This document shows, piece by piece, positions 5,201 through 45,769 of a DNA stretch of 64,000 nucleotides. Location: NCBI RefSeq assembly GCF_009914755.1, contig NC_060930.1; one strand, given 5' to 3'. Source of the stretch: the human T2T-CHM13v2.0 reference genome, Homo sapiens. The notes under the pieces were generated by a model, which was not told where the DNA came from, did not search any database, and was given only the letters and a program-made list of their open reading frames with translations. The first letter of the stretch is position 1. Each line of letters begins with the position of its first letter. The position numbers and the translations under genes are program-made.

Positions 5201-5286
5201 GCAAAATAGCCTGCATGTAATTAAAATAATGAGGGAATAGCTCAAACTTTCCTTTCTTATTATATTAACAAGGCTTCTGAGAAAGA

Positions 5287-6908: not shown

Positions 6909-7221
6909 GACCAGGTGCAGTGGCTCATGCCTGTAATCCCAGCACTTTGGGAGGCCAAGGCCAGTGGATTGCTTGAGCTCACAGGTTCGAGACATGCCTG
7001 GGCAATATAGCAAAATCCTGCCTCTATAAAAAATACAAAAATTAGCCAGGCATGATGGTGCACACCTGTAGTCCCAGCTACTCAGGAGGCTAAGGTGGGA
7101 GGATTGTTTGTGCCCAGGAGGAGGAAGCTGCAGTGAGCTGAGATTGCTCCACTGCATTACAGCCAGGTGATGGAGTGAGACCCCATCTCAATTAAAAAAA
7201 AAAAAAAGGAAAAAGTAAAAA
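6909..7221 (+). mobile_element. Alu, full length (AluJ-like)
   Basis: Dimeric Alu with GGATTGCTTGAG J-type motif and A tail. TSD GAAAGTGATGA at 6898-6908 and 7222-7232. Confidence 0.95.
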
Positions 7222-7631
7222 GAAAGTGATGAATTCTACCTGGAGAGAAACAGATTTGTTCCCATGGGACATGGCATATATAAAGCCATTGTTGAGTATT
7301 GAAGGGCGGGAGTTTGCAGACAGAGAATCCCAAGGTCAAATAAGGGCAAAGTGTTTGGCCTGTATCAAATTTGTTTTTAATGTCAGGAAATAAATCTCAA
7401 TAATATTTATCTCTAGATATGTATTATATTACGTTTGTGCCAGCTTTTAATTAATCTTGGAAAGTTATCAACTTCATATACTTATTGATAGATTATAATT
7501 TAGTTAACAAAACATGTCACTGGCGAATATGATTCAGTTGACATGCTCACTATTACACGCATTTATTTCCAGATTCAAAGTTCCTGATACTGCACATTAT
7601 CAACTGCAAATTATTTCTTTAAAAAATTTAT

Positions 7632-8040
<409 letters not shown>

Positions 8041-8412: not shown

Positions 8413-9384
8413 TCCCTTGATTTTTTTTTTTTTTCTGGCTTTTTTCTTTTGGTATTGTGGTAATTTTGCTGTGGGTTGTAAAAATGTCCCTAGATAGCAG
8501 TTTCTTGGAACTTTATGAGTTTACTCAGTTTTCATGTTAATTTTTCAACTTGAAATTTCCACACAACATTAATAGATTCAAATTACACTAATACATTCAA
8601 ATTTTACAGCTAGGATGGCACAGGCTCAGAGGTTGAATTTTTCCAATTAGACTCAATCCACACAGTACCCATCTCCTCCTCCTCTTGCCTGACACTGGAT
8701 TGCCTAAATGAATAGCTATTTTCAATATCATTACACTCAGATGCAGCCTTTCAGATTTCTTTTTATGCATGGTCTTACATCTTGCTTTCTATCGTGCACA
8801 AGTCCAAGTTTACTCTGTTCCCATGTGAGTGGTCAACTTCCTTGGGCCAATATCTAAGTCCCTTTGGCCTGCTGAAGGATTAGTTAGTGTATTCTGTATT
8901 CTGGCCTTGACTCCTTTCTTTCTTCATTTGCAGAGACTTCTGTTATTTAATTAAAGCTTGACAACATTGTCAATCTTTTGGTATGCTTTATAATTTCTGC
9001 ATTTTTGTTGCTGAGGACTAAGAAGGGGGAAAAAGAGGGCCTATTTGTTTAAATTGCTAAATTACTAGAACTAGAATTAGATTTTTTTTGGATAAGAGTG
9101 TAAGACAATTTGGAGATCTGAGATAAGTACCAAAGGATGATGGCAGAAGGATGGGGAAGGAGTGGCGAGTTGGAGATCAAGGAACCTTGATTGTGCACAG
9201 ACGTGTAAGAGCCAGTAAATGAAGAGGTGCTGCTGGAAAAGGGAAACAGAAGATTCAGGAGACTGGTGTCACAAAAACTGCAGGGGCAGGAGATTTCACG
9301 AAAGTTTTAGGATATTTAACATGTAGCATCCCTATCTGGTAAAGTTTAGCATCACAGGGAAAAAGCTCATTGGCTTTGGCACTT

Positions 9385-9828
9385 AGTCATTTCCAGTCTT
9401 CTTCCTCTCAGTTGGTGGCAACCCCATCAGGTTGCTCAGTCAAAAACCTTGGTGCCATCCTTGACTTACCAACCTCTCTCACAAGATCTATATCTAATTC
9501 ATCAGGAAATTCTGTTTTCTTGGCCTTCAAGATATGTCTGCACTTTGACTACTCACCACTACTAATTTAAAATTGCAAACTGAATATCTCCCCTTCCCAC
9601 TCTCAACAATTTCAATATTGGTTACCCAGCTCTCTTATTGTTCCATAGCATTTTTCATCTCCAGAATCGTGGATGGCATCCTCATTTATTACAGTGATTG
9701 CTTACTGCCTGTCTTCTCTCACTAGACTACTAGTCCCATGAGGGCAGGGTTCTCTGCTGTGCTTTAAGGGCTTAGAGCACCTGTACCTGGCACGTAGTAG
9801 TGACTCAATAATTGTTACATAAATGAAT
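9385..9828 (+). mobile_element. L2 LINE 3' fragments
   Basis: AAAAACCTTGGTGCCATCCTTGACT; CTAGACT...CCATGAGGGCAGGG; CCTGGCACGTAGTAG...CTCAATAA...AAATGAAT, the L2 terminus. Confidence 0.7.
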
Positions 9829-9894
9829 TGTAATCTTGTTGTATATTTAACTAAAATTTCATTTGAGCAAATTTTAGTTAAATATATAACAGAC

Positions 9895-10618
9895 TCCAGT
9901 TAGAGCTATATAGTTGGAGCTGCATGTTTTAGGCATGTAAGCCTTATTCAATTCTACTTTGAATATAATTAATATTTTAGTAAAAATTTAATCTCTTATC
10001 CTATTATAGGAATTCTGTGCTCAAGAATTTTTGCAACCATCAAATCCTAGAAATTAGAGTCCAAACATTACTATCAGATACCATTTTTACCTTATAAACT
10101 AATTAAAGATTTTAGCCAAACTTCTAAATAATGAGATTTAAAACATTCATAAGGAATTAATATTCTAGCATTTCTTCTTCACAAAGTACTTACCCAGTGA
10201 ACAAAGAAATTTCAACTTACCAAAACAACAAAATACTGCATATATTTGAGGATTCTTCCAACTGGAACTAAACAGTTGGAGCTGTATGTTTTAGGCATGT
10301 AAGCCTTATTCAATTCTACTTTGAATATAGTTAATATTTTAGTAAAAATTTAATCTCTTATTCTGTTATAGGAATTCTGTGCTCAAGAATTTTTGCATCC
10401 ATCAAATCCTAGAAATTAGAGTCCGCACATTACTACCAGGTACCATTTTTACCTTATACCCTAATTAAAGATTTTAGCCGAACTTCTAAATAATGAGATT
10501 TAAAATATTCATAAGGAATTAATAATCTAGCATTTGTTCTTCACAAAGTACTTACTCAGTGAACAAAGAATTTTAAATTTACCGAAAAAACAAAAGACTT
10601 CATATATTTGAGGATTCT
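9895..10618. repeat. Head-to-tail tandem duplication, 362-bp unit x2
   Basis: 9912-10256 aligns without gaps to 10274-10618 (AGTTGGAGCTG...TTTGAGGATTCT), about 23 mismatches in 345 bp by eye. The first 17 bp of each unit are more diverged. Confidence 0.97.
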
Positions 10619-11446
10619 CAGTATGTCCTTCAGGTGGGAGCTAATCATAATTCCAAAACAAACAAACACAAATGCCATAGTCCCAAGTGTTGAAATTCCA
10701 AAAGATCAAAATACTGAAAATATAATTCTAAAAAAGTTTAAAAAATTGTATTTACACTTTTAAAAGGAGATTTATTTGAGAAACATAAAAACACAACAAA
10801 ACACTTCCTAGGCCATTTTACATAAGAAAATAGGCAATAATAACATGCATATTTTTGCAAGCATTAACACTTTGGCATACTAATGACAGTTGCATGGGTA
10901 TAACAGTTATAAGCAGTCAAGTTGTATTCATATAAATAGGTCAAAAGTGAAATATATACTATAGTTGGTAATTACGTGTGTCTAGCTTTATAACTTTGGT
11001 CATATGAAACATAATGACAGACAACATAAATCTTGTCTTGGCGAGACTGTTGGAAAACCATGATGAGATACTGTCACAAATGTAATCACCCAAAGAGTCA
11101 AGATCTCAAGAAATTGTATCTTTCACAAATGCAGATCTACAAAAAGGACATTTCTTCATTTAGTGAGGAAATTTCAACATTTCTATATAAATGTGCAGTG
11201 CTTATACATAAAGTCAACATTGTGATAATGCACTTCAATGGAATCAAATTTGCAGCATAAAACAAATTAGAACTCTCTAAAAGTCTCCACACAATTTAGA
11301 TCTCTAATATGGGATATGATGTGAAGATGAAATACATAGCATAACAAATTGGCGCTATGTGTGAAGAGGTAGAAGTTATATGTGATTGGATAATTTGGCT
11401 TGGAGGACTTCTTGTATTTTTCATCTGTGTTTTTACTTCTGTGATC

Positions 11447-11665
11447 TGTATTTGGACAGTGGTTGTGGTCTACAAATTTTGTAAGTATATGCAGTCCATC
11501 TGAAAGTCTGATTATTGCTTGGCCTTTGCAATTAAGGGATTTTCAGCTTTTGCAGCACCAATAATAATTAGCTTTTAAACTTTTATCTTTCACTATTAAG
11601 AAGCCTCATACACTTAACTTATCACAGCCTTTTTGTGAGGGAACAATTTCACAGATCTCTTCCAC
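11447..11665 (-). pseudogene. Decayed MULE transposase N-terminus (FLYWCH zinc-finger domain)
   Basis: Manual translation: VEEICEIVPSQKGCDKLSV*GFLIVKDKSLKANYYWCCKS*KSLNCKGQAIIRLSDGLHILTKFVDHNHCPNT. It has the FLYWCH pattern S-x-KG...G-F...YWxC...C...HNH-x-P and two in-frame TGA stops. Confidence 0.8.
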
Positions 11666-11721
11666 TGTGTTGTAAGGAATACAGTAGCAGGAATGATACT
11701 TGGCTTCCTCAACGCCAAGTG

Positions 11722-12569
<848 letters not shown>

Positions 12570-12614
12570 GGTTGGCGCACTGTCAATTTAGCACTCATAT
12601 ATAACCCCTTAAAC

Positions 12615-12838
12615 CAAGCTTGTCCAACCTATGGCCCATGGGCCACATGAGGCCCAGGATGGCTTTGAATGTAGCCCAATGCAAATTGATAAGCTTTCTT
12701 AAAACATTATGAGAATTTTTGTGATTTTTAAAAAAATCTCATCAGCTGTCGTTAGTGTTAGTGTATTTTATATGTGGCCCAAGGCAGTTCTTCTTCTTTT
12801 AATGTGGCCCAGGGAAGCCAAAAGATTGGACACCCTTG
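12615..12838 (-). mobile_element. MER30 (hAT-Charlie MITE)
   Basis: CAAGCTTGTCCAACC...GTGGCCCAGGGAAGCCAAAAGATTGGACACCCTTG. Perfect 8-bp TSD CCTTAAAC at 12607-12614 and 12839-12846. Confidence 0.9.
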
Positions 12839-13927
12839 CCTTAAACCATACTTAATTTCCAAATAAAGACAATAACAAGTTAATAGCTCTACCTAACATA
12901 ATGCAACTATTCTGTGACTGTGAATTTCAAGATTTTAGACATTGGGGATTTTAGACTTTAGAAATTTTGATCTTTTGAGATTTCAACATTTGGGATTATG
13001 GCATTTAGGATTGTGTCTTTTGGGATTATAATCCAAACCCCCTTTGGGCAAACTCATTTAACACACATTCTCATAAGTCTGTATATATTTAAATAAGGTT
13101 GTGACATGAGTATACAACTTTTCGTTGAATAAAGATACAAACTGATTCCCTTATATCAGCAAGTCATATAGATTCTCTTTGTCAGAAGATATTTACAATT
13201 TTAATTTTTTGCTTTATAAATTCTAGTAAGAGCTTCTGGCCTTTCTTGGCTGTGAGTTAAAAAACTGACTTCATAATTCCTTCCTTCCTTCTTTTCATTC
13301 TTCCATATGTCTTTTTTCTTTATTTTGCTCTTCTGCCCCCCACCATCTTCAGTCCACTCAATAGCCAGTTCCTACTCTAAAAACAGCAAATGGAATTACA
13401 ATAAACTAATATACTTAACTTGTCTTGCAGAGTCCACTGCGTCTTTTGGTTCATCATTATTTTGTGCGTAGAGATTTTTGTTTTTTCACCGAATATAATT
13501 GCATTGACTTCCTACCAAGTGGTATAATTCTCAATTCTTTCTCACACATCTCTTTCTTACACATTTAGAAGTTGAGCCCACACCCATTCTCTAATCATCA
13601 CAGCTGACGTTCATTTGCTGTTCTCTCGTTATTTCAATCATTTGCTTCTTGGGTTTTAGAGTCTGTTCATTTTTTTTTTTTTTTTTTTTTTTGCTTGACC
13701 AAAAGAGACTAGAAGGCTGTGAGTTGTGGCTCTTCTTACGAATTGCATGTGCTTAGTTTACTGTTTGTATTAACATCTCACCTGGGAGGCAGAGACACAT
13801 GAAAACAAGATTCAGAGCTCTAAGGACATTACTGATGATGCAAGCTGATACAGACAGGAAAATCAACAGAGCCCAGCAACATCAAAGCAGCACTTGCTCT
13901 TTGGTCATTTAGGAATTGAATCAAGAA

Positions 13928-14075
13928 TACCTAATGTTAAATGACGAGTTAATGGGTGCAGCACACCAACATGGCACATGTATACATATGTAACAAACAT
14001 GCACATTGTGCACATGTACCCTAAAACTTAAAGTATAATTTAAAAAAAAAGAAAAGAAAACCTTAAAAAAAAAAA
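13928..14075 (+). mobile_element. Very short 5'-truncated L1PA 3' end
   Basis: TACCTAATGTTAAATGACGAGTTAATGGGTGCAGCACACCAACATGGCACATG...CCCTAAAACTTAAAGTATAAT followed by an A-rich tail. Confidence 0.92.
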
Positions 14076-16507
14076 CAATGGGGTCTCATTTTCTTTTTCG
14101 TTACAAGTTTTACGAAAAAGTTATATGAACCAATATTGATAAATATTGAAAATACAGATTGATTTTCAAAGTTTGACAGGAAAATACAGAATCTTTTTCT
14201 GGCTAAAAGCAAACCAAGTGACTCAGTTTGAAAATGGCCTGAAGAGAGAGTGCTGTCTTTCTCCTTCTCCTTTTCCTTCTTCCTCCTTCTTCTCCCTCTC
14301 TTTTTCTTTTGCCTCCATTCACTTTTCTTTGTCTTCCATATCTTTTAATCTTTTGCGTTAAAAGAAACTATTTAACTGAATGAGGTGAACTATGTTCTAT
14401 TTGGATAATTTGGCATTTTGTACTTTTTATTTTATTTTCTTCATGAAAATTTTAAAATGATTTTAGCCTGCAAATAAAGATTGCATTGTCCCATTTTCTT
14501 GACATATAGTAAGGGTCAACAAAATAAGTGTAACTATTAAGTTTTCATTGGCTTTCAATATAATTTGATTACAATGATAAACAGAGGTGCTAAAAGCTAT
14601 AGTTAACATAGTAGCTTCTATAATTCAGTTTTATTTTTATGAGAAATAAAAAGCAAATAGAACCGCAGATCTTTGTGTGCACACAGTAGAGAAAGAGCAC
14701 ATTTAAAAAATTTTTCGAAGTATAAATACAGAAAACACTTATGAAACTTAATATAATTACATTATAATTTCCAAAATTATGCTATTCCTCCAACTATGGT
14801 GATTATGTTGTGGGAAACTGATAATGGCTACCAAATTCTCTTGTTTAATAAAACCAGAATAATGTTAATAATGATTTTTTAAAATCATTAATTGTATCCA
14901 CAATTCAAAATAGTAATCTTTATATCAAATAACAACTAAAAAGCGTAGTCTAAGGATGTATTTTATGAGACAGAAGAGATCAGATTTTTCTATTCTCTAT
15001 ACCTTTTCTTCATATCTTATTTTGCTGATAGTGAAAAAGAAGCAGAGTGGGAAACTAAAATTGAAAAAATCTGATTTTTGGAAAGTCCTATTTTGCAAAT
15101 CAAATTAATTAACATAGGTGACTTCAGATTATATCAGAATTGCCATAGCTCCCAATAAGTTACTTTTTAAACTAGAAAAAAGCCACTCGTTGTAAGAAAT
15201 AATAGTAATAAGCTTATGTGTTTTAGATCCTTTTTTGAACTTGCTCTCCCCTTTGTTATACAAGAATTGCACACAAAAGAGGGAGAAAAAAGTAACAAGA
15301 CAGCATTGCCAGTCCTATACTTTGTCCATGTGCTAATATCTGCTGATGAATTCGAAGAAAAAGGTAGATTTGACTGTTAACATGAAACTCTGATTGAAAC
15401 CAAGCCAGAAACAAAAACCAAGTTATGACATCTGTATTATTTTCATTATCAATATCTGTGTAAATCAGTTAAGTACTTTAGTCCTTGAGCCATTTATAAT
15501 GTAGTAGTCTGTATTATTTATCTTTATTTTGTTGCTATAATAAATACTTCTCTTATCATATTTAGATATTGAAAATAATAAATCTTAAGTGGTGCGTATA
15601 AGCTGTATATGACTGAAGTAAAGACAAGCAAATCTCAGAAACAGAAAATACCTTTTAGGGAGGGGATGGGGTTAAAAGGTACACAAAATATGGTGTGTTT
15701 TAATTTTTTTTCTCTTCTTATATCTTCTTGCTTTAATGTAGTTTTATGTTTATTTTTTTGTGACTTTATTTTAAAAAAACAGCTGATGTGTTTTTTATTT
15801 TCCAACTTAATTGCTCCTATAGGCTTTGCTGCAGAAAAATAAACTTAAAAAGCAAAACTTCAGGCTTGTTCTAATTTCTTTTTATTCTCCCTCTGTGTAA
15901 ATCCAAGTCACAGCCCAGAAAATAGTACAAAATGATTTTCTTTTTCTTCTGAAACTCATTACGGTACATTCACAAAATGGTATATTTAATGTTCCATTGT
16001 TATTTCCACAATATAATTTGTTAATCAAAGATTATGTTGGTTATATTTTTGTAAAATAATCTTTAATTGTTTTGCTTGAAAAACTCCAACTTAGATTATT
16101 CATTTGAAAATGATCATCATGACTAAGAATAAAGTACTTCTAGGCTGCTTGGAGATGTGTACAGCATGTGACTGTATGTGTAAGTTTTTGTAACTTTCTA
16201 CACTTCTTTAAAATCACCTCCTTGGTACAAAAAAAAATATATATATATATGTGAGAAAACTAACCTGCTGTTCAGGTGCTGTTCTTTAATCAACAGAAAT
16301 AGTCTGGTAAAAAACTTGCTAAGTTTATATAAATATAATAATACTTTTGTCATTTTAAGCATGAGTAATTTGTGTAACAAAAAACATAATTTAGCCAATC
16401 ATGCAATTAATCTTGTATTGAAATCTCTGTGCTGTGGATGCAAAGGCCAAGGATTCTGCCCTCAAGGAGCTCACAGTCTGGCAGAGGTCTCAAAAATACA
16501 CATAACT

Positions 16508-35989: not shown

Positions 35990-36950
35990 CGTTAAGCAGG
36001 GGAACTAGAATGAATAGGACACAGCCTCGGTCTTGAGAAGTATACATTCTAGTTGGAGGACTGAGAAAAGAATACAAATAATTACAATATAAAGCAGGTG
36101 AGGATGAGCGTTTAGGAGTACAAAGTGAAGTGAGTTCATAGGAAGGGGTTCTCATCCATTTGAAACTACAAAGTATTTCTATGGAACTTTGAAATTTAAG
36201 ATTGCCTTGAAAGATGAGTTGAATTTGACAGAATAAAATATTATGCACATAAGGAATAATATAACAAAGGCACAGAGAGGAAAAGACTGCATAGCAAATG
36301 GTTATTTTTTGGCTGGAGAATGGGGCTCATACGAAAGAACATCGGGCATTAAAGCCAGAATGCACTTTAACCTGGGAGCAGTGTAGACTAAATTGGAGTG
36401 AAGAAAGAAATGAATGTGAAGGTGGAGGGTGGAGCTGGTTCAGGGAAGAGACCAGAACAATAACCCTAGGGAGGTAAAGAGGAATTTAGCTAAGGTGGTA
36501 ATAGTGGGGAAAGAAAAGAAGGGATGAATATGAAAAACTTTCTGAAGGACTGCTTGCTGGGAACTGTTAACACCTTAGATGTGGTGAATAGGGAGAGAAA
36601 GAGACCACTGGTGGCTGAGAATGAGCCTAGTACTAACAGAGTGGTGTTGCCTGAAGACAGAGATAGGAAAGTCAAGAGGAAGAATTGGGGGTGGAGAAAC
36701 CAACATTTTTGTTGAGATTTAGTTTATTTGAATACTTGGGATAGCCAGGAGTTAAGGAGATACCTTTTAGTCATACACATCCACATGTCAAAGCCATCAC
36801 ATTGCAGCTGTGGGTATACATTTGGGTGCCATGCGCTTAATGATGGAAGTTTAGATGGGAAGATGTTGGGCATTATGAAAGAGAAAAGCAAGGGAAAGAG
36901 TAAAGGCCAAAGAGAGTATCAGGTTGTCAGAATATCAAATTTTGCAGACA
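35990..36950 (-). mobile_element. Decayed L2 segment
   Basis: TACATTCTAGTTGGAGG; CCTTGAAAGATGAGT; CAAAGGCACAGAG; TTGAGATTTAG. These are L2-like motifs in the expected order. Confidence 0.5.
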
Positions 36951-37140
36951 AGTGGGCAACAAAGCTAGTTTTGGGTGCTTGGGTGATCACTGGCAACATT
37001 AAGGAGAACTTTTAGTCTAATGCTGGGAGTAGGGTCCAGAAATAAAAGTCCCAGGTGAGGCAAAAATAATGAGAGAGAGAGAGAGACTGAGCTCTCCATC
37101 TGGTGTGGTTGATTTTGTGACTTGAACTGTGATGTGCTCT

Positions 37141-37270
37141 TAGGGTGGCCAGATTGAGTTAAGCTGACCAACCATCCCAGTTTGCCCGGGACAGTCCCGT
37201 TTTAGCACGAAAAATCTGCATCCCAGGAATCTCCCTAGTTCTGGGCAAGCTGGGATGGTTTGTCACCCTA
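37141..37270. mobile_element. MER81 (hAT-Blackjack MITE)
   Basis: TAGGGTGGCCA...CCCAGTTTGCCCGGGACAGTCCCG...GGGATGGTTTGTCACCCTA, with terminal inverted repeats. Confidence 0.75.
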
Positions 37271-37461
37271 CAATTCTTAGGGCAACATACGGCGCTTAGT
37301 AGGTTTTCAGTAAGTATTTGTTGAGTGAATGAAAAAAAGAAAAAAAAAACAGAGACAGATTAACCTCTCTGGGGCTAAGTTCCTTAAATTTGTAAAATGA
37401 GGTTAGAAATATCTGTAATAGCCAGCACATGAGGTTATTTTGACAACCAGATGAAATAATG

Positions 37462-37597
37462 TTTCATGCGCGTCCGTGTGAAGAGACCACCAAACAGGCT
37501 TTGTGTGAGCAACAAAAAACGGCACCAAATTTCATGCGCGTCCGTGTGAAGAGACCACCAAACAGGCTTTGTGTGAGCAACAAAAAACGGCACCAAA
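37462..37597 (-). repeat. Two extra 68-bp units (LTR-terminal 53 bp + oligo-A/T + 9-nt PBS fragment + AA) appended to the 3' LTR
   Basis: TTTCATGCGCG...GAGCAACA-AAAA-ACGGCACCA-AA repeats with period 68 (starts at 37462, 37530 and 37598). Confidence 0.97.
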
Positions 37598-38050
37598 TTT
37601 CATGCACGTCCGTGTGAAGAGAACACCAAACAGGCTTTGTGTGAGCAACATGGCTGTTTATTTCACCTGGGTGCAGGCGGGCTGAGTCCGAAAAGAGAGT
37701 CAGCAAAGGGAGATAAGGGTGGGGCCGTTTTATAGGATTTGGGTAGGTAAAGGAAAATTACAGTCGAAGGGGGTTTGTTCTCTGGTGGGCAGGAGTGGGG
37801 GTCGCAAGATGCTCAGTGGGGGTGCTTTTTGAGCCAGGATGAGCCAGGAAAAGGACTTTTACAAGGTAATGTCATCAGTTAAGGCAAGGACCGGCCATTT
37901 ACACTTCTTTTGTGGTGGAATGTCATCAGTTAAGGTGGGGCAGGGCATATTCACTTCTTTTGTGATTCTTCAGTTATTTCAAGCCATCTGGGCTTATATG
38001 TGCAAGTCACAGGGGATGCGATGGCTTGGCTTGGGCTCAGAGGCCTGACA
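37598..38050 (-). mobile_element. HERV-H 3' LTR (LTR7)
   Basis: Minus strand TGTCAGGCCTCTGAGCCCAAGCC...GCATGAAA; AATAAA at 37662-37657. Confidence 0.97.
37657..37662 (-). terminator. Poly(A) signal of the HERV-H 3' LTR
   Basis: GGTGAAATAAACAGCC on the minus strand, at the canonical LTR7 R position. Confidence 0.8.
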
Positions 38051-38063
38051 TTCCTGCCTTCTT
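38051..38063 (-). other. Polypurine tract (PPT)
   Basis: AAGAAGGCAGGAA directly abuts the TGTCAGG start of the 3' LTR. Confidence 0.85.
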
Positions 38064-38699
38064 ATATTAATAAGAAAAATAAAACAAAATAGTGTTGAAG
38101 TGTTGGGGCGGCGAAAACTTTTGGGGGGTGGTATGGAGAGAGAATGGGCGATGTTTCTCAGGGCTGCTTCAAGCGGGATTAGGGGCAGCGTGGGAACCTA
38201 GAGTGGGAGAGATTAAGCTGAAGGGAGGTCTTGTGGTAAGGGGTGATATTGTGGGGATGTTAGAAGAAACATTTGTCTTATAGAATGATTGGTGATGGCC
38301 TGGATACATTTTTGTATGAATTGAAAAACTAAATGGAATAACAGAAGGAGAAAAACAGGTATAAAAGGTCTAAGAATTGGGACGACTCAGGATATCTGAT
38401 TAGAGAGTGCCTAAGGAGATTCAGCATAGTCCTGCCAGCAAAGATTATTTATTTACTTCAAGAGTTAAGAGTGGCAGTTTGGGGATAGCACCAGGAGATA
38501 TCAGCTGTGATGGCTTGGAAAAACAGTGTAAACTGGCAGTGTAAACAAGAGCAGGGCATGTTTGAGTAGTTGAGAACGGTGAATAGGAGTATGACTAGAC
38601 AGAAAATAGTAGGGATGACAAGTTTTTGTTTTTTTTTTTTTTTTTTTTTTTGAGGCACAGTCTAAGTTGGTCTTGTGTCTGGAATGAGACTGGGGCCTA

Positions 38700-40460
38700 A
38701 TAAAAAAGAGCGTCTATACAGGAGCTTAAATGGGCCGTACCCTGTAGCATTCCGAGAACAGGCCTGAATTCTGAGAAGGGAAAGTGGTAAAAGTATTGTC
38801 CAGTCCTTTTTCAGTTGGTGGCTGAGCTTGGTGAGGTGTGTTTTTAAAAGACCTTTAGTCTATTCTACTTTTCTTGAAGGCGGAGGACCATAAGGGATAT
38901 AAAGGTTTCACTGAATACTAAGAGTCTGAAAAACTGCTGGCTGATTTGACTAATAAAGGCTCGTCTGTTATCAGACTGTATTGAGGTGGGAAGGCTAAAC
39001 TGAGGAATTATGTCTGACAGAAGGGAAGAAATGACTGCGGTGGCCTTCTCAGACCCTGTAGGAAAGGCCTTTACTTATTCAGTGAAAGTGTCTATTTAGA
39101 CTAAGAGGTATTTTAGTTTCCTGACTCGGGCATGTTTTGTAAAGCTAATTTGCCAGTCCTGGGTGGGGCAAATCCTCGAGCTTGATGTGTAGGGAAGGGA
39201 GGGGGCCTGAATAATCCCTGGAGTAGTAGAATAGCAGATGGAACACTGAGAAGTTATTTCCTTGAGGATAGATTTCCATGATGGAAAGGAAATGAGAGGT
39301 TCTAAGAGGCAGGCTAGTGGCTTGTACTATAGCATAACCTGCCTTTGCCGGTGTGTGGCGATTAGGCCTGGTGGAACCGCCATCAATAAATCAAGCGTGA
39401 TCAGGGTGAGGAACAGGAAAGAAGGAAATTTGGGGAAATGGGGTGAATGTCAGGTGGATCCGAGAGATACAGTCATGAGGGTCAGGTGTGGTATCAGGTA
39501 TAATGTGGGAGGCCGGATTGAAGTCCGGGCCAGGAACAATGGTAATTGTGGGAGACTCAACAAAGAGTGAGTATAGCTGAAGGAGCGGGGAAGCAGAAAG
39601 TACATGCGTCAGGTATGAGGAAGAAAACAGATTTTGGAAGTTATGAGAACTGTAGAGAGTGAGTTGAGCATAGTTTGTGATTTTGAGGGCCTCTAAAAGT
39701 ATTAAAGCAGCGGCAGCCGCTGCACACAGACATGAGGGCTAGGCTAAAACAGTAAGGTCAAGTTGTTTGCAGAGAAAGGCTACAGGGTGCGGTCCTGGCT
39801 CTTGTGTAAGAATTCTGACCGCACTAACTATGCCTAGGAAGGAAAGCAGTTGTTGTTTTGTAAGGGATTGAGGTTTGGGAGATTAATTGGACACGATCAG
39901 CAGGGAAAGCACGTATGTTTTTATGAGAATTATGCCGAGATAGGTAACAGATGAGGATGAAATTTGGGCTTGACTGAAGTAATGGGGGCTGTCTATGAAG
40001 CCTTGCGGCAGTACAGCCTTGGTAATTTGCTGAGCCTAATGGGTGTCAGGGTCAGTCTAAGTGAAAGCAAGGAGAGGCTGGGATGAGGGATGCAGGGGAA
40101 TAGTGAAAAAAGCATCTTTAAGATCAAGCACGGAATAGTGAGTTGTGAAGGAAGGTATTGAGGACAAAAGAGTGTATGGGTTGGGCACCACAGGGTGGAT
40201 AGGCAAAACAATTTGGTTGATAAGGCGTAGACCCTGAACTAACTTGTAAGGCTTGTCTGGTTTTAGGACAGGTAAAATGGGGGAATTGTAAGGAGAGTTT
40301 ATAGGGTTTAAAAGGCCATGCTGTAGCAGGCGAGTGATAACAGGCTTTAATCTTTTTAAAGCGTGCTGCGGGATGGGATATTGGCGTTGAGTGGGGTAAG
40401 GGTGATTAGGTTTTAATGAGATCCAGGAATAGTCAGGGAAGCAGATTATTTAGTTAAAGT
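38700..40460 (-). pseudogene. pol: HERV-H pol remnant (deleted and frameshifted)
   Basis: Minus strand near 40130-40090 reads GTGCTTGATCTTAAAGATGCTTTTTTCACTATTCCCCTGCATCCC = VLDLKDAFFTIPLHP, a retroviral RT motif. No long ORF; boundaries are approximate. Confidence 0.8.
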
Positions 40461-40463
40461 GTC

Positions 40464-40688
40464 TCAGCCTAATAAGGGAACTGGGCAGGAGGGGATAACT
40501 AAAAAGGAGTGCTTAAAAGAGTATTGTCTAAGTTGGCACCAGAGTTGGGGAGTTTTAAGAGGTTTAGAAGCCTGGCCGTCAACACCCACAACAGTTATGG
40601 AGGCAAGGGAAACAGGCCCTTGAAAAGAAGGTAATGTGGAGTGGGTAGCCTCCGTATTGATTAAGAAGGGGACGGGCTCACCTTCCAC
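40464..40688 (-). pseudogene. pro: HERV-H protease remnant
   Basis: ORF contains FLINTEATHSTL (degenerate D-T-G-A active site) and PVPLLG. Confidence 0.8.
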
Positions 40689-40754
40689 TGTGAGAGTTAC
40701 CTGAAGCTCGGTGTCCGTGATGGTCTAGGGGGCTTCCGAGGCGATCGGGCAGTG

Positions 40755-41069
40755 TCAGTCTTCAGCCGCTAAGCCGAGAAGATCTGGGAAGGAGTCAGAG
40801 AGCGTTCCCGGGGCTCTGGGAGTGGCTGCCAGGTGAGTTGAACAGTCTGATTTTCCGTGGGGTCCCACACAGATGGGATGCAGCTTAGGAGGAATCCCAG
40901 GCTGCGGGCATTCCTTGGCCCAGTGGCCAGATTTCCGGCATGTGTAGCAAGCTCCTGGGGGAGGAGGTTCTGGAGGAACGCCTGGCCACTGCAGTTCAGG
41001 TGTTTGGAAGTTCTTGTGTGCTGGAGATGTGGCTGGGGTTTGTCTCACAGTGGAGGCAAGGAATTGCAA
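40755..41069 (-). pseudogene. gag: HERV-H gag C-terminal remnant with nucleocapsid zinc knuckle
   Basis: CYTCRKSGHWAKEC matches CX2CX4HX4C. A second degenerate knuckle is HPICVGPHGKSDC. Confidence 0.88.
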
Positions 41070-42058
41070 CTTTTTTTCTGTTATTGTACACCTTGTAGGT
41101 GAGGTTAATTAAGTCCTGTTGTGTGGTTTGAGGGCCAGATTCCAATTTTTGGAGTTTTATTTAATGTTGGGAGCAGATTGGGTAATATAATGTATATTGA
41201 GAATAAGACGGCCTTTTGACCTTTTAGGGTCTAGGGCTGTAAAGCGTTTCAGGGTTGCTGCCAAAAGAGCCATGAACTGGGCTGGGTTTTTATGTTTGAT
41301 GAGAAAGAGCCTAAATGCTTCTGATTTGGGATAAAGAAAAAGGAGCATTAACCTTGACTATGCCTTTGGCTCCAGCCACCTTTTTAAGAGTAAATTGCTG
41401 GGCAGGTGGGGGAGGGCTAGTCACGGAACGAAACTGTAAGCTAGACCAGGTGTGAGGAGGGGAGGCGATAAAAAGATTATAGGGTGGAGAAGCGGAGGCT
41501 GAGGAAGAATTGGGACCTAGCTCGGCCTGGCGAGGAGCAGCCTGGGGAGGAAGGGAGAGGTCAGATGGGTCTGCAGAAAAGGAAGATTAGAAAGACTCAG
41601 CGACACTTGGGGTTGGTACTGAGGGGACAGGCGGGAGGGAAAGAAGGAAGATTTGGGACGAGTTGCACTGGGCACAGAGACTAGGAAGGGACTGATGTGT
41701 AAAAGAATGCCTGGACGTCAGGCACCTCAGACCGTTTGCCTATTTTATGACAAGAATTATTTAGATTTCGCAGGATGGAAAAATTCAAAGTGCCATTTTC
41801 TGGCTATTTGGAACTACTGTCGAGTTTGTATTGGGGTCAAGCGGCATTGCAGAAGAAAATAAGGCATTTAGGTTTTAGGTCAGGTGTGAGTTGAAGAGGT
41901 TTTAAGTTTTTGAGAACACAGGCCAAGGGAGTAGAAGGAGGAATGGAGGGTGGAAGGTTGCCCATAGTGAAGGAAGCAAGCCTAGAGAAAAGAGAGAGTA
42001 GAGAAACGGAGGGAAGGCGTTCGGGGGTTCTTACCTTCCAGAAAAGTGGGAAAAGGGG

Positions 42059-42480
42059 TTGGGGCGCAGAGATAAGAGGTCAGGGCATGGAAATAAGGGA
42101 TTGGGGTGCAGAGATATAAGAGGTTGGGGCATGGAAATAAGGGATTGGGACACAGAGATATGAGGTAGGGGCACGGAAATAAGGGATTGGGGCACAGAGA
42201 TAAGAGGTAGGGGCACAGAAATAAGGGATTGGGGCACAGAGATAAGAGGTTGGGGTGCGGAAATAAGGGATGGGGGCACAGAGGTAAGAGGTCGAGGTGT
42301 GGAAATAGGGGATTGGGGTGCAGAGATAAGAGGTTGGGGCACAGAAATAAGGGATTGGGGCACAGAGATAAGAGGTTGGGGCACAGAAATAAGGGATTGG
42401 GGCACAGAGATAAGAGGTTGGGGCGTGGAAATAAGAGATTGGGGCACAGAGATAAGAGGTTGGGGCGTGAAAATAAGGGA
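42059..42480. repeat. Minisatellite in the HERV-H leader: 20 x 21-bp units arranged as 10 A/B dimers
   Basis: Alternating TTGGGGCACAGAGATAAGAGG / TTGGGGCAC(A/G)GAAATAAGGGA; 422 bp = 20x21+2. Confidence 0.95.
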
Positions 42481-42852
42481 TTGGGGGTTCTTGCCCCGTA
42501 GAAAAGCGGGACTTGCCGCTAAGGGTGAAGGAGAAGGGGTTGAGGGGTACTTGCCCCTCTCCCAGAAAAGCAGAGAAGGGGTAGAGACAAGGAGAGAAGG
42601 GGTTGAGGTACTTGCCCTTTTGGGTGTTTAATCAGAGAGGCGTCCCTGCAATGATTAAACACCAAGGGAAGGCTGCCTTCCCAGTCCGTGACTGGCGCCG
42701 GAGTTTTGGGTCCATGGATAAAACGTGTCTCCTTTGTCTCTCCCAGAAAATGAAAGGAATTGAAATTAAGAGAAGGGAGAGGTTGAAGAGTGGAAAGGAG
42801 AAAGTGGTTGAGGGACAGTGAGAGAGGTTGGAGAAGAGAGTAAGAAGAGGCC

Positions 42853-42861
42853 GCTTACCTG
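42853..42861 (-). promoter_or_regulatory. Splice donor in the HERV-H leader
   Basis: Minus strand TTTTAAATCAG|GTAAGC, about 125 nt downstream of the PBS, where HERV-H has its known donor cluster. Confidence 0.65.
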
Positions 42862-42984
42862 ATTTAAAATTGGTAAGATGTTCCTTGGGCTGGTCGGTCT
42901 GAGGACCTAAGGTCATAGGTGGATCTTTCTCACGGAGCAAAGAACAGGAGTACAGGGGATTGATCTCCCAAGGGAGGTCCCCCG

Positions 42985-43002
42985 ATCCGAGTCACAGCAC
43001 CA
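42985..43002 (-). other. Primer-binding site, tRNA-His
   Basis: TGGTGCTGTGACTCGGAT matches the complement of the tRNA-His 3' end (TGGTGCCGTGACTCGGAT) at 17/18. The mismatch is CpG->TpG. Confidence 0.93.
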
Positions 43003-43004
43003 AA

Positions 43005-43457
43005 TTTCATGCGCGTCCGTGTGAAGAGACCACCAAACAGGTTTTGTGTGAGCAACATGGCTGTTTATTTCACCTGGGTGCAGGCGGGCTGAGTCCAAAA
43101 AGAGAGTCAGCAAAGGGAGATAAGGGTGGGGACGTTTTATAGGATTTGGGTAGGTAAAGGAAAATTACAGTCAAAGGGGGTTTGTTCTCTGGCCGGCAGG
43201 AGTGGGGGTCGCAAGATGCTCAGTGGGGGTGCTTTTTGAGCCAGGATGAGCCAGGAAAAGGACTTTTACAAGGTAATGTCATCAGTTAAGGCAAGGACCG
43301 GCCATTTACACTTCTTTTGTGGTGGAATGTCATCAGTTAAGGTGGGGCAGGGCATATTCACTTCTTTTGTGTTTCTTCAGTTACTTCAGGCCATCTGGGC
43401 GTATACATGCAAGTCACAGGGGATGCGATGGCTTGACTTGGGCTCAAAGGCCTGACA
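43005..43457 (-). promoter_or_regulatory. HERV-H 5' LTR (LTR7), promoter/enhancer
   Basis: 453 bp, about 16 differences from the 3' LTR by eye. TATAAAA at 43141-43135; two ACAAAAGA motifs at 43370-43363 and 43320-43313. Confidence 0.95.
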
Positions 43458-45769
43458 TAATGTATATGAGTATATTAGGAAAAACTGAACACTATACAAA
43501 TATATACAAATTTATGCTTGATTAATTTTTTATTTTATGCATCCTATGCATACTATTATTTGTTGAAATTTTTACTTGTCTTTTTTTTTTTTTTTTTTGG
43601 TCGACTAACCTCTCATTTCCAATGATGTGATATTGGCACTGAAGTTAGTAATTAATTTTGTTTATATGGCACCCAACACCCAAGAGCCTCTAGGCACATG
43701 GCCAAGTCCTTTTTTTAAATATAGTCATTAAATATAGGAAAAGAGCCAAGCAAATTCCTAAACTGGCAAGTGAAAAAAAGCGCAACTAGAAAATGGGGAA
43801 ACAAAAGAATTAATAACAAGTATCAATTAAGAGAATTTCTTCCATTATCTAGGGACAAAAACTGCATCCCAAACCTAATAGAAAATAGGTTGTATAACAT
43901 TAGCCACCTAATCTCCCAACCTCTTGATAAAAGAGCTCCTGAAGTATGAATTTTTTTTAAATGAAAATTTCCGTTTTTTAAAAATTGAAAATATAATTAG
44001 GCTTTTCACTTAGCAAATTCTCATGTTAAAGTGGGAAGAGACCTTGGAGATCATCTCATTCTACCTTCTTATTTGATATGTGCTTTTTGTAGGAACAGCT
44101 CTGGGTAATGTTTTATTAACATACTTAGCTCCACAAAGTGAAGGGTAAACTCCCCTGTGAATGAAGGACTCTGCAGATTTCAGAGTGTAGACAAAGAATG
44201 GATCAGAGTTCTTAACTGGACTGTCTAAGTCCCTTCATCCATATCTAGCTCTCTCCTCCCGACTGGACAGGATCCCAGTCTCATGGTCCTAGAATATTTT
44301 GACTAAACTCTGAGGGCTGCACTGCAAAGACATTTGTTTTCTTTCCTGCTTTGTCTTCTTGCCTTTTCTCAGCTTCTGATGCTCCTTTTGCTTTTCTCTA
44401 TTAATAGCTGTACATATTTCTAGAAATGGTAGATGCAATATGACTCAGAGAAATATTATTCAAAGACTTCAACTTTTTTGCCCAAGAAATTCAGCAAACT
44501 TTAAACTTTTCTTTGATTACCCCACTCTCCTGTCTTTGAAGATTTCCTTTGGAGACACCCTATTTTGTGGTGTCTCTTTTATTTGAAGTTGATTTTACAG
44601 CAACGAAACAGTTTCAAAATTAGACCTTCTTCACAAATAAGTTATTAGATAATTTGCAGAGATTATTTATTTTACAATTCAAAATTCTCTGCCTAATACC
44701 ACTGTGCTATGCCAACTATATATATATATAGTCATTTGTGTATATATATATTTCATATATAGTCATTTGTACACTATATATACAAATTTGATCTGGATAG
44801 GCAAATTGTGAGATATTTATTCTACATGAACCCTGTTATATAATGTCTGATCTATTGTACTGATCAAATTATCACTCTCATATGTTCATATTTGATACTA
44901 TTAGCAAGGACATATTGTTTACTATAGTATTTATTTCATGCATGTATAACTTGTCATACAAGTAGATTGTGTCAAATTGTGACATAAATATACTTCTCAC
45001 TTTCCCTTTTAAACCCTTAATTCCTCAGTCTATACAGAGGGGTCTATTGTTGAGAAGAGCTAAAATGTTACTGCTTCTGGAGTACTTCCACGTTTAAGAT
45101 GGAAAATATTGAGGGCAACTGTATGGAATTGTATATCAGACCCTGAAAGTGGAAACCACTGTGTCTTAGGCTAAGAGGAATGGTGCTGGAATATAAGGAA
45201 CTCTGATATGATGTCATAAGACTATGTTCACTTCTGATTTCAACATTTATTAGCTATTTGACATTAGATAGGTGAACCCTGATAAGCCTTAATTTTCTTA
45301 TCTATAAAATAGGAACACATATTTTATAAATATAATACAAATAAATAAAAAAGTGATATACAAATGCCATGTATTATTATTATTTCTTTACTTCTTTTCC
45401 TATAATGCCTTTTTAGATGCACATTAAATACTTTTCAATAAATGGTGGCATAAACTTTCTAGAGCAGTTATAATATAGTTATTTGTAATAATTAGATATT
45501 TTGGGGGAGCTGCGTATCTTTAATTTTATTTTTTAGAAGAGTCCTGGAAATGCTATTATTTGGAAACTATTTTTCCCTTGATTATCTGGAATGAAACATT
45601 TCAAATAAGCCTCACAAGCCAGGCACAAGACTACCCTGTAATACTGGCTACAAATTTCTGAAACAGGATTGCATTTCATTCTCAAAACCAATTTTACAGT
45701 TTAATAACATGTTCTCTCTTTTTCTTTTATAAAGAAATCCAGCTTCTTTGTTCATATGGTACTTCCTAT

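What the first reader, a model, noticed from the sequence alone, without database searches (positions are those of the whole stretch)
37457..37662. HERV-H 3' LTR ends in a U5-tRNA(His) concatemer, an apparent fossil of aberrant reverse transcription
Seen, proviral sense: normal LTR end ...GCATGAAA, then twice [TT-TGGTGCCGT-TTTT-TGTTGCTCACACAAAGCC...GCGCATGAAA], then the TSD. So the last 53 bp of the LTR occur three times (period 68). Each junction holds the first 9 nt of the PBS (ACGGCACCA on +, at 37519-37527 and 37587-37595; the tRNA-His 3' end including CCA) plus four bases found in neither LTR nor PBS. Established: a 3' LTR is normally followed directly by host DNA, and PBS sequence sits there only transiently while RT copies the still-attached tRNA primer. 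Simple local slippage therefore cannot create the first unit. Both fragments keep the tRNA-matching CG, whereas this provirus's real PBS has decayed to TG. The TAATG TSD abuts the outermost copy. Inference: RT copied 9 nt of primer, gained non-templated bases and re-primed at R/U5, and integrase used the regenerated outer end. The second unit came from a repeat of that cycle or from later unequal exchange. An alternative is early ectopic copying from a 5' LTR-PBS junction. The extra U/GU-rich blocks downstream of AATAAA could also change 3'-end formation.
Basis: partly seen in the sequence, partly recalled or inferred. Interest (0 to 1): 0.8.

Follow-up and report, generated by a model that had tools for sequence, protein, structure and literature searches.

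The report
Shared HERV-H U5/primer-site duplication, not one-off
The triple LTR end with bits of the tRNA-His primer site is real, but the very same junction sits in two other human loci, so it is a single old reverse-transcription accident that was then passed on or copied, not an event of this one insertion.

Summary
It is a 68-bp array of 2.8 copies (37462-37650). Each junction holds TT, 9 nt of the tRNA-His primer binding site (PBS) with CG intact, and four extra T. The 5-bp target-site duplication abuts the outermost copy.

The exact 30-mer junction occurs four times at three loci of this genome.
- chr1:228.553 Mb: one unit lies between the 5' U5 and the true PBS, the only place from which it can be passed on through RNA. 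That provirus has a normal 3' LTR.
- chr5:137.074 Mb: the chr6 3' LTR, the array and 781 bp of chr6 host flank sit inside another HERV-H provirus.

The identical T6 filler points to a single origin.

Best reading (about 0.5): a progenitor RNA carried the duplication upstream of its PBS. Ordinary minus-strand strong-stop synthesis copied it into this LTR, and the 5' LTR lost it.

Rivals: ectopic DNA conversion from a chr1-like 5' junction (0.25), or the founder event happening at this integration (0.12).

An aberrant strand transfer is still the likely founder event, but its locus and strand are unresolved. Interest is moderate.

The parts
37457..37461 (.). Target-site duplication TAATG (CATTA in proviral sense), on the 3' side of the provirus.
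   Evidence: The same 5 bases occur at 43458-43462.
37462..37514 (-). Outermost copy (unit 2) of the last 53 bp of the LTR (end of R plus U5), ending in GCGCATGAAA directly against the target-site duplication.
37515..37529 (-). Junction 2. In proviral sense it reads TT, then TGGTGCCGT (the first 9 nt of the tRNA-His PBS, CG intact), then TTTT filler.
37530..37582 (-). Unit 1 copy of the last 53 bp of the LTR, identical to unit 2.
37583..37597 (-). Junction 1, identical to junction 2.
37598..38050 (-). Native 3' LTR of 453 bp (TGTCAGG...GTGCATGAAA). AATAAA lies at 37662-37657. It differs from the two extra units at 2 positions within its last 53 bp.
   Evidence: 3043 first-look candidates genome-wide, of which 40 were scored: the self-match and two 53-bp partial matches to this array's own units, the other 37 at 96-97% identity.
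38051..42984 (-). Internal HERV-H sequence of the provirus.
   Evidence: 1171 candidates, 40 scored, 90-96% identity.
42985..43004 (-). TT followed by the true PBS TGGTGCTGTGACTCGGAT (CG decayed to TG).
43005..43457 (-). 5' LTR of 453 bp with a single normal U5 and no extra unit.
   Evidence: K2P distance to the 3' LTR is 0.036.
43458..43462 (.). Target-site duplication TAATG, on the 5' side of the provirus.
36676..37456 (.). Host flank that, together with the array and the 3' LTR, has one other full-length copy in the genome, inside a chr5 HERV-H provirus.
   Evidence: chr5 at 95% over 1-778 of 781; every other scored match is 32-123 bp long. Also.

Best explanation
The array is a lineage feature with a single origin, not a private scar of this integration.

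Founder event. Once, in some HERV-H replication cycle, reverse transcriptase made an aberrant strand transfer between the primer site and the R/U5 border. The result was the arrangement U5-TT-(8-9 nt of PBS)-T run-(last 53 nt of R/U5)-TT-PBS. There are two possible routes. (a) Nascent minus-strand DNA stopped about 55 nt from the primer, received non-templated A residues and resumed on the PBS of a genomic RNA. (b) Plus-strand strong-stop DNA copied about 9 nt of the tRNA and re-aligned in R. I cannot tell which route was used.

Propagation. An RNA with this duplication upstream of its PBS is transmissible. When tRNA-His primes at the true PBS, minus-strand strong-stop DNA copies the extra unit or units, which then become part of U5. 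The chr6 provirus got its extended 3' LTR in this ordinary way.

Loss from the 5' LTR. The units were lost either by an early plus-strand transfer at the partial PBS or by later deletion between the 64-bp direct repeats.

Two units. The second unit, and the perfect identity of the two units, reflect repeat gain or homogenisation within the array.

Shown here: the anatomy; the presence of the identical junction at three loci; the chr1 layout between 5' U5 and PBS; and the old age of the array. Inferred: the route into chr6, the loss from the 5' LTR, and the strand of the founder event.
For: 1. Distribution. The exact 30-mer junction has 4 matches at 3 loci, with 0 matches for the reversed control. 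Looser and gapped patterns add no further locus. (up to 3 mismatches): the same 4 matches; 4 of 8 matches are the junction and the other 4 are ordinary LTR variants; 4 of 27; 4 of 12, the other 8 being point-mutated PBS sites; 4 of 5.

2. Single origin. The filler and the breakpoints are identical in all copies. Independent errors would not be expected to repeat a non-templated filler.

3. chr1 provirus. It carries U5-TT-TGGTGCCGT-TTTT-U5 tail-TT-TGGTGCTGTGACTCGGAT at its 5' end. It has its own target-site duplication (AAGAA/AAGAG, in an Alu tail) and a normal 3' LTR. So the unit exists in the one position that is transcribed into genomic RNA.

4. Standard reverse-transcription model (passages of PMC11241228). 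U5 of both LTRs is copied from the RNA stretch between R and the PBS. Plus-strand strong-stop DNA ends with a copy of the tRNA and pairs with the PBS.

5. Age. The chr5 copy of LTR, array and flank has at least two partial-PBS pieces. It is 95% identical in the flank and has a K2P distance of 0.065 in the LTR. The array with two junctions is therefore old and not an assembly artefact.

6. Site 422 of the LTR alignment (U5, not a CpG). It is A in the chr6 5' LTR and in the chr5 inner U5. It is G in 28 of 28 other LTRs and in the extra units of chr6, chr5 and chr1. This fits units that were not copied from this provirus's own U5 in its own round of synthesis. The evidence is weak: I estimate a 0.1-0.2 chance of coincidence.

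7. PBS state. The true PBS is CTG in both chr6 and chr1, against 1 of 7 other 5' junctions in the fetched loci (5 CCG, 1 CCA, 1 CTG). This is a mild hint of shared ancestry of the PBS region.
Against: 1. No locus has both LTRs extended, which is the simple expectation for a daughter of such an RNA. chr6 is extended only at the 3' LTR (2 units) and chr1 only at the 5' end (1 unit). Each therefore needs one extra loss or an unusual transfer.

2. Only two independent integrations carry the feature, so any such lineage was tiny.

3. chr1 and chr6 show no special kinship.
- chr1 LTRs are not among the 40 scored best matches to the chr6 LTR (only 40 of 3043 candidates were scored).
- The chr1 internal region is 91.9% identical to chr6, while 35 other proviruses score 93-96%.
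- In the first 760 bp after the LTR, chr1 is the second closest of 8 (94.7%), but no variant is shared exclusively by chr1 and chr6.
- Each provirus has LTR variants shared by its own two LTRs and absent from the other: chr6 at columns 196 and 247, chr1 at columns 231, 270 and 385. Neither looks like the direct parent of the other.
- Intermolecular first-strand transfer could explain unrelated bodies, but that is an assumption.

4. The chr5 locus shows that DNA-level ectopic copying did involve this very LTR. That makes the conversion rival credible.
Confidence: 0.5

Rival explanations
1. Ectopic DNA-level conversion after integration. The chr6 provirus integrated with a normal 3' LTR. Later a chr1-like 5' LTR/leader (U5-partial PBS-T run-U5 tail-PBS) served as a repair or conversion template. 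One unit was inserted, with the tract ending inside the U5 tail, so the target-site duplication stayed in place. A second unit arose by unequal exchange.
For: A donor-type arrangement exists on chr1. Ectopic copying involving this LTR is documented on chr5. There, the chr6 3' LTR, the array and 781 bp of host flank sit inside a provirus that keeps its own CTTAT/CTTAT target-site duplication. That provirus has a 3' LTR of another subtype, only 82% identical to its 5' LTR, and the joint lies at a 14-nt microhomology. chr1 and chr6 show no overall kinship, which is what transfer of a short patch predicts. The chr6 5' LTR needs no loss event under this reading.
Against: It requires a rare interchromosomal conversion with only 53 bp of homology on one side, plus a later duplication. 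It does not explain the shared CTG state of the true PBS in chr1 and chr6, although independent CpG decay could. The array with two junctions already existed when the chr5 copy was made, so the gain and the duplication would both have to be early.
Confidence: 0.25
2. The founder strand-transfer error happened in the reverse transcription that produced the chr6 provirus. The chr1 and chr5 copies are secondary, arising through chr6 RNA or through conversion.
For: chr6 has the most units and the least decayed ones. The chr5 copy clearly derives from chr6. A minus-strand version of the error (stop after about 55 nt, added A residues, resumption on a PBS) would extend the 3' LTR, and the A-rich filler on the minus strand fits the recalled preference of reverse transcriptases for adding A. 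LTR divergence does not make chr1 older than chr6: K2P is 0.027 for chr1 and 0.036 for chr6.
Against: The extra U5 of a 3' LTR is not transcribed into genomic RNA. chr1 would therefore need a chr6 5' LTR that was once extended and has since lost its units, or a conversion. chr1 carries none of the chr6-specific LTR variants (columns 196, 247, 422). Column 422 suggests the units were not copies of this provirus's own U5 (weak evidence).
Confidence: 0.12
3. Recurrent independent errors at a hotspot: the same structure arose separately at chr6 and chr1.
For: A GCCGT/GCCAT similarity lies next to the acceptor site in R and could favour repeated switching at the same place.
Against: Both breakpoints and the T6 filler are identical in all complete junctions. 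Genome-wide searches found no variant junctions with another filler or breakpoint.
Confidence: 0.02
4. Assembly artefact or a recent local slippage with no link to reverse transcription.
For: None was found. The two outer units are identical, as a recent duplication of one unit would be.
Against: The array is 189 bp, and the inner copy differs from the outer ones. A 95%-diverged paralog on chr5 keeps two partial-PBS junction pieces. The unit contains 15 nt that a normal 3' LTR end lacks, so slippage alone cannot create the first unit.
Confidence: 0.01

Closest known systems
PBS/tRNA-primer sequence retained next to U5 in aberrant retroviral DNA ends (the 'U5 mispriming' class of HIV-1 2-LTR circle junctions)
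   Same: An unprocessed U5 is followed by primer-site sequence. This is attributed to faulty removal or copying of the tRNA primer (passages of PMC5618025 read).
   Different: Those are unintegrated, dead-end circles seen in cell culture. Here the primer-site piece is only 8-9 nt, is followed by a filler and a re-copied R/U5 tail, is integrated in the germline, and is present at three loci.
Retroviral vectors with two primer-binding sites (Voronin and Pathak, J Virol 2004)
   Same: As I recall it, initiation at the downstream PBS carries the sequence between the two sites into U5 of the LTRs. That is the logic by which a chr1-type RNA would give a chr6-type LTR.
   Different: Only the title was seen, in the reference list of PMC4227088; the paper is not held, so its content is recalled and unchecked. 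Here the upstream site is a 9-nt fragment rather than a full PBS, and the system is natural.
Direct-repeat deletion and duplication, and non-templated addition at strand transfers, during reverse transcription
   Same: Template switching between repeats and A-rich non-templated insertions at transfer points would explain the founder junction, the change in unit number and the loss from one LTR.
   Different: No experiment ties it to HERV-H.
Ordinary LTR minisatellites, such as the 50-bp U3 repeat of this same LTR
   Same: Head-to-tail copies inside an LTR, and likely unstable copy number (37868-37964 and 43275-43371).
   Different: The U3 repeat is made only of LTR sequence and is present in both LTRs. 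The U5 array contains primer-site sequence plus filler and is present in one LTR only.
Capture of host sequence by read-through transcripts and recombination during reverse transcription (the model for oncogene transduction)
   Same: The chr5 provirus has, in order, an LTR, an extended U5, a partial PBS, 781 bp of chr6 host DNA, a 14-nt microhomology joint, and then HERV-H internal sequence.
   Different: The model is recalled. The two LTRs of the chr5 provirus are of different subtypes (82% identical), which reverse transcription alone cannot produce. DNA-level repair is the simpler reading.

Membership tests
HERV-H (LTR7-family) provirus | Two LTRs of the family flanking internal HERV-H sequence. 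| tested here: met
   The LTRs are 37598-38050 and 43005-43457, with a K2P distance of 0.036. For the LTR, 3043 candidates were found, of which 40 were scored: the self-match and two 53-bp partial matches to this array's own units, the other 37 at 96-97%. For the internal 1571 bp, 1171 candidates were found and the 40 scored are 90-96% identical.
HERV-H (LTR7-family) provirus | A 5-bp target-site duplication. | tested here: met
   TAATG at 37457-37461 and 43458-43462. chr1 has AAGAA/AAGAG and chr5 has CTTAT/CTTAT.
HERV-H (LTR7-family) provirus | An 18-nt PBS complementary to the 3' end of tRNA-His. | tested here: inconclusive
   The PBS TGGTGCTGTGACTCGGAT lies two bases after U5. The CCG form occurs in 5 of 7 other 5' junctions.
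Slippage-born tandem repeat (minisatellite) | The unit is composed only of sequence already present at the site. | tested here: not met
   Fifteen nt of each 68-nt unit (TT, TGGTGCCGT, TTTT) are absent from a normal 3' LTR end. Compare the chr1 3' LTR and the 28 other LTRs.
Slippage-born tandem repeat (minisatellite) | Head-to-tail copies with homogenisation between units. | tested here: met
   Period 68, 2.8 copies, 98% matches. Units 1 and 2 are identical over 68 of 68 bases. This may explain the second unit but not the first.
One-off aberrant reverse-transcription or integration product of this provirus | The junction is unique to this locus. | tested here: not met
   There are 4 exact junctions at 3 loci, including a 5' LTR/PBS position on chr1.
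One-off aberrant reverse-transcription or integration product of this provirus | U5 is followed by primer-derived sequence. | tested here: met
   TT plus TGGTGCCGT follows GCATGAAA twice.
LTR extension inherited from an RNA with a duplicated U5/PBS region (two-PBS logic) | A relative carries the unit between its 5' U5 and a full PBS. | tested here: met
   chr1: unit at 228,553,334-228,553,400, with the PBS from 228,553,403.
LTR extension inherited from an RNA with a duplicated U5/PBS region (two-PBS logic) | Both LTRs of a daughter provirus are extended alike. | tested here: not met
   The chr6 5' LTR has 0 units and its 3' LTR has 2. The chr1 5' end has 1 unit and its 3' LTR has 0. A loss or an early plus-strand transfer has to be assumed.
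Interchromosomal duplicate of the chr6 locus (chr5 copy) | Homology runs across the LTR/host junction into unique flank. | tested here: met
   The 781-bp flank has one other full-length copy, on chr5 at 95%. It is contiguous with the array and the LTR.

The most novel reading that the evidence does not exclude
The partial primer site was actually used in replication. On this reading, the chr5 provirus is a HERV-H that transduced 781 bp of chr6 host DNA. A transcript started in the chr6 3' LTR and ran through the U5 array into the flank. It was reverse transcribed from the outer 9-nt tRNA-His site; on chr5 the piece TT-TGGTGCCG sits exactly where a PBS belongs, right after an LTR extended by one unit. 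It then joined HERV-H internal sequence by a template switch at the 14-nt microhomology GAGGAAGAATTGGG. That would be a germline fossil of host-sequence capture by an endogenous retrovirus, and it would show that the concatemer created new, functional priming sites.
Probability: 0.22. Interest if true: 0.7.

Novelty: new variant of a known kind. Interest (0 to 1): 0.4.

Why it matters
Errors of strand transfer and primer removal are well known from cell-culture retroviruses, but germline fossils that keep a piece of primer-site sequence are rarely pointed out.

Here one such error can be followed through at least two integrations and one ectopic copy. It therefore gives a natural record of three things:
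- how a U5/PBS duplication behaves in replication, a natural two-primer-site element;
- how unstable it is, since the unit number differs at every LTR;
- how HERV-H LTRs exchange sequence between chromosomes.

It also warns against reading a single locus as a one-off event. For genome function it is probably neutral. A possible effect on polyadenylation of this LTR is untested.

My three full-text searches that bear on it found no description of this structure in HERV-H. The library lacks most subscription journals, so earlier RTVL-H/HERV-H papers may describe it.

Tried and rejected
1. More carrier loci. Five further genome patterns were tried, with mismatches, CpG-degenerate letters and variable gaps. 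None found a carrier beyond chr1, chr5 and chr6. The extra hits were ordinary LTR polyadenylation-region variants, point-mutated PBS sites, and one unrelated chr6:97.1 Mb match. Copies with decayed anchors could be missed.

2. Kinship of chr1 and chr6. LTR site table, best-match lists and leader alignment: no exclusive shared variants.

3. Whether the chr5 provirus's odd 3' LTR was converted from the neighbouring provirus. It is 95% identical to the neighbour's 3' end. It is equally close (93-95%) to the 39 other LTRs scored, and the neighbour is not among those listed. No support was found.

4. A one-step mechanism for the truncated outer unit on chr5 (TTTGGTGCCG|AAACAT). I found none. It reads as two later deletions of 55 and 8 bp, or as one 63-bp deletion plus three substitutions.

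5. Literature.
- One search failed because a term was too short.
- Searches gave nothing specific on this structure.
- (dual initiation, two primer-binding sites) only led to a reference-list title.
- three papers are not held.

7. Orthologous sites in other primates and other human haplotypes could not be examined with these tools.
Full report
**1. What is there**

The window holds a 5,996-bp HERV-H provirus on the minus strand, at 37462-43457.
- The 5' LTR is 43005-43457. It is followed by TT and the PBS TGGTGCTGTGACTCGGAT at 42985-43002.
- The native 3' LTR is 37598-38050.
- The 5-bp target-site duplication is CATTA in proviral sense (TAATG on +), at 43458-43462 and 37457-37461.

Between the native end of the 3' LTR and the target-site duplication lie two extra 68-bp units. 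Each unit is TT, then TGGTGCCGT, then TTTT, then the last 53 bp of the LTR.
- Tandem Repeats Finder gives period 68, 2.8 copies, 98% matches and score 364.
- The two partial PBS pieces keep CG while the true PBS has TG.
- The filler sits in a run of six T, so the PBS piece is 8-9 nt and the filler 4-6 T.
- The 5' LTR has a single, normal U5.

**2.

The window's genome could be searched.
- The exact 30-mer junction occurs 4 times at 3 loci: twice in the window, once at chr1:228,553,327-356 and once at chr5:137,074,131-160. The reversed control pattern gives 0 matches.
- Allowing 3 mismatches and CpG-degenerate letters gives the same 4 matches.
- Gapped patterns that would catch any short spacer between an LTR end and a re-started R/U5, or any truncated PBS, add no further carrier: 4 of 8, 4 of 27, 4 of 12 and 4 of 5.
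- The remaining hits are ordinary LTR variants, point-mutated PBS sites and one unrelated match.

So the structure is neither unique nor common. It is confined to three loci, with identical breakpoints and an identical filler. This argues for one origin followed by spread, not for a recurrent mechanism.

**3. The chr1 locus**

This is an independent provirus at chr1:228,552,877-228,558,798. It inserted in an Alu tail, with target-site duplication AAGAA/AAGAG.
- Its 5' end reads U5 ...ACGCATGAAA, TT, TGGTGCCGT, TTTT, a U5 tail of 52 nt, TT, TGGTGCTGTGACTCGGAT, and then the normal leader.
- Its 3' LTR ends normally in GCGCATGAAA, directly against the target-site duplication.

The unit therefore exists between U5 and a full PBS. 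This is the only position from which it is transcribed into genomic RNA and can be passed on.

**4. The chr5 locus**

The chr5 junction lies in a stretch that is homologous to the window across the LTR/host boundary.
- Window 36676-37456 (host flank) has exactly one other full-length copy in the genome, on chr5, 95% identical over 1-778 of 781. Forty of 58 candidates were scored, and all other scored matches are short (32-123 bp) partial hits.
- The flank copy is contiguous with a partly deleted array and with an LTR that has a K2P distance of 0.065 to the chr6 3' LTR. The array there is: native U5, one full unit, then TTTGGTGCCG joined to AAACATCTGG.
- The whole stretch lies inside another HERV-H provirus, chr5:137,068,912-137,074,606, which has its own CTTAT/CTTAT target-site duplication.
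- In proviral order that provirus reads: a chr6-type LTR; the array; 781 bp of chr6 host DNA; a joint at the 14-nt microhomology GAGGAAGAATTGGG (shared by the chr6 flank at about 36680 and HERV-H internal sequence at about window 41500); HERV-H internal sequence; and a 3' LTR of a different LTR7 subtype.
- That 3' LTR is only 82% identical to the 5' one. It is 93-95% identical to the 39 other LTR7 copies scored.

Reverse transcription makes two identical LTRs. The simplest reading is therefore that an ordinary LTR7-type provirus had its 5' LTR and about 1.5 kb of leader overwritten by DNA-level ectopic repair, using the chr6 3' LTR and flank as template.

A retroviral transduction of a read-through transcript remains possible, and two details fit it.
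- TT-TGGTGCCG sits exactly where a PBS belongs.
- The chr5 LTR lacks two U3 variants shared by both chr6 LTRs (columns 196 and 247) while sharing a U5 variant (column 422).

That reading would need a later replacement of the 3' LTR, for which I found no evidence.

For the finding in hand, chr5 shows three things. The array is real. It already had two junctions when the copy was made. And it is old: flank divergence is 5%.

The two chr6 LTRs have a K2P distance of only 0.036. That is less than the chr5/chr6 distance, although the chr5 copy must be younger than the integration. Together with the two variants shared only by the chr6 LTRs, this suggests LTR-LTR homogenisation at chr6.

**5. Mechanism**

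In the standard model (passages of PMC11241228), the steps are as follows.
- tRNA primes at the PBS.
- Minus-strand strong-stop DNA copies everything from the PBS to the 5' end of the RNA. After the first transfer it becomes the U5-R of the right-hand LTR.
- Plus-strand strong-stop DNA copies U3-R-U5 plus 18 nt of the tRNA, then pairs with the PBS copy at the other end.
- It follows (my inference) that plus-strand strong-stop DNA ends up in the left-hand LTR.

Two consequences follow.

First, an RNA of the chr1 type (R-U5-unit-PBS), primed at the true PBS, yields LTRs whose U5 includes the unit. This is how chr6 could acquire the array with no error of its own.

It would not place it at a 3' LTR end. 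In that proposal, the plus strand copies 9 nt of tRNA, gains filler bases and re-primes in R.

The founder event could equally have been a minus-strand error. In that case, DNA extended 55 nt from the primer, stopped 8-9 nt upstream of the likely poly(A) site, and received about five non-templated A residues. It then resumed on the PBS of the co-packaged RNA at position 8-9.
- The A-rich filler on that strand fits the recalled preference of reverse transcriptases for adding A.
- The GCCGT/GCCAT similarity next to the acceptor site fits a switch on either strand.

I cannot decide between the two.

**6. The asymmetries**

No locus has both LTRs extended.
- chr6 (units at the 3' LTR only) can be produced from a duplicated RNA in one of two ways. 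The plus strand may transfer early, from the first partial PBS. Or the 64-bp direct repeats in the 5' LTR may later recombine.
- chr1 (unit at the 5' end only) fits three readings: a plus-strand founder, priming at the partial PBS, or later loss from the 3' LTR.

The two chr6 units are identical over 68 of 68 bases. Meanwhile the inner U5 has two changes, and the chr5 unit has two others. For an array this old, that points to recent homogenisation or re-duplication, so the unit number may vary among people.

**7. Which route into chr6**

For inheritance through RNA:
- the chr1 layout;
- the shared CTG state of the true PBS, against 1 of 7 other junctions;
- column 422 (A in the chr6 5' U5 and the chr5 inner U5; G in the extra units and in 28 of 28 other LTRs). 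This suggests the units were not copied from this provirus's own U5. It is weak: I estimate a 0.1-0.2 chance of coincidence.

Against it, and in favour of a patch transfer, is the lack of any overall kinship between chr1 and chr6:
- chr1 LTRs are not in the 40 scored of 3043 candidates;
- the chr1 internal region is 91.9% identical to chr6, while 35 other copies are at 93-96%;
- no exclusive shared variants occur in 760 bp of leader;
- each provirus has private variants shared by its own two LTRs, so neither is the plain parent of the other.

Intermolecular first-strand transfer would uncouple U5 from the rest of the genome, but that is an assumption.

The chr5 case shows that ectopic DNA copying did involve this LTR.

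My odds are:
- inheritance from a duplicated progenitor RNA: 0.5;
- post-integration conversion: 0.25;
- founder event at chr6 itself: 0.12;
- recurrence or artefact: about 0.03 together;
- the rest unassigned.

The broader statement, that there was one origin and the feature spread beyond this locus, I hold at about 0.85-0.9.

**8. Comparison with what is known**

- PBS or tRNA-primer sequence next to an unprocessed U5 is a known class of aberrant HIV-1 2-LTR circle junction (passages of PMC5618025).
- Vectors with two primer-binding sites are the closest experimental analogue of the inheritance logic. I saw only the title, in a reference list; the paper is not held, so its content is recalled.
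- Three full-text searches that bear on it found no description of a U5/partial-PBS concatemer in HERV-H. The library lacks most subscription journals, where the early RTVL-H/HERV-H work sits, so this is not proof that it is unpublished.

I rate it a new variant of a known kind. It is of moderate interest as a traceable germline fossil, with a more interesting but less likely side story on chr5.

**9. Not tested**

- Orthologous sites in other primates.
- Unit number in other human haplotypes.
- Poly(A) site use.
- Complementarity of the PBS to a tRNA-His gene, which is recalled.

Ages are not calibrated here. With recalled neutral rates of 1-2 x 10^-9 per site per year, the distances and the 5% flank divergence put these events roughly 10-25 million years ago.

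Noticed in passing
L019/L020, chr5:137,068,912-137,074,606; window 36676-37456 and about 41500-41514: A chr5 HERV-H provirus with an intact CTTAT/CTTAT target-site duplication contains 781 bp of chr6 host flank directly after a chr6-type LTR and U5 array. The flank joins HERV-H internal sequence at the 14-nt microhomology GAGGAAGAATTGGG. Its two LTRs are of different subtypes (82% identical). This is either ectopic DNA repair or host-sequence transduction.
   Followed up: partly
window 37598-38050 vs 43005-43457: Both chr6 LTRs share two derived U3 variants, at alignment columns 196 and 247. These are seen in 0 and 1 of 28 other LTRs, and the chr5 copy lacks them. The LTR-LTR distance (0.036) is also smaller than the distance from chr6 to the chr5 copy (0.05-0.065). 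This suggests gene conversion between the two LTRs of this provirus, so its LTR-based age is an underestimate.
   Followed up: partly
window 37462-37597: The two extra units are identical over 68 of 68 bases and keep all four CpGs each, although the array is old. This suggests recent homogenisation or re-duplication, and possibly copy-number variation between people.
   Followed up: no
window 37462 and 43005; c1 8798; c5 8912: In all three proviruses the integrated U5 end is ...CATGAAA directly against the target-site duplication. The right LTR end is therefore AA rather than the usual CA, while the left end is the usual TG.
   Followed up: no
window 42053-42486: A 42-bp tandem repeat of 10.3 copies (87% matches) lies in the proviral leader. 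It makes leader alignments between copies unreliable: chr1 versus chr6 is only 84% identical there.
   Followed up: no
window 37868-37964 and 43275-43371: A 50-bp duplication (1.9 copies, 82% matches) is present in the U3 of both LTRs. It is an ordinary LTR-internal repeat, in contrast with the U5 array, which is in one LTR only.
   Followed up: no
chr5:137,060,001-137,090,000 (L019-L021): Three HERV-H proviruses in the same orientation lie within 30 kb (c5 3525-7980, 8912-14606, and from 27922 on). The first two are only about 930 bp apart.
   Followed up: no
L035 and L038 (leader, alignment columns about 590-675): Two of the seven other proviruses share a block of 15 substitutions plus several insertions in the leader. 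This marks a distinct leader subtype among copies whose LTRs are 97% identical to the chr6 LTR, and hints at mosaic (recombinant) HERV-H genomes.
   Followed up: no
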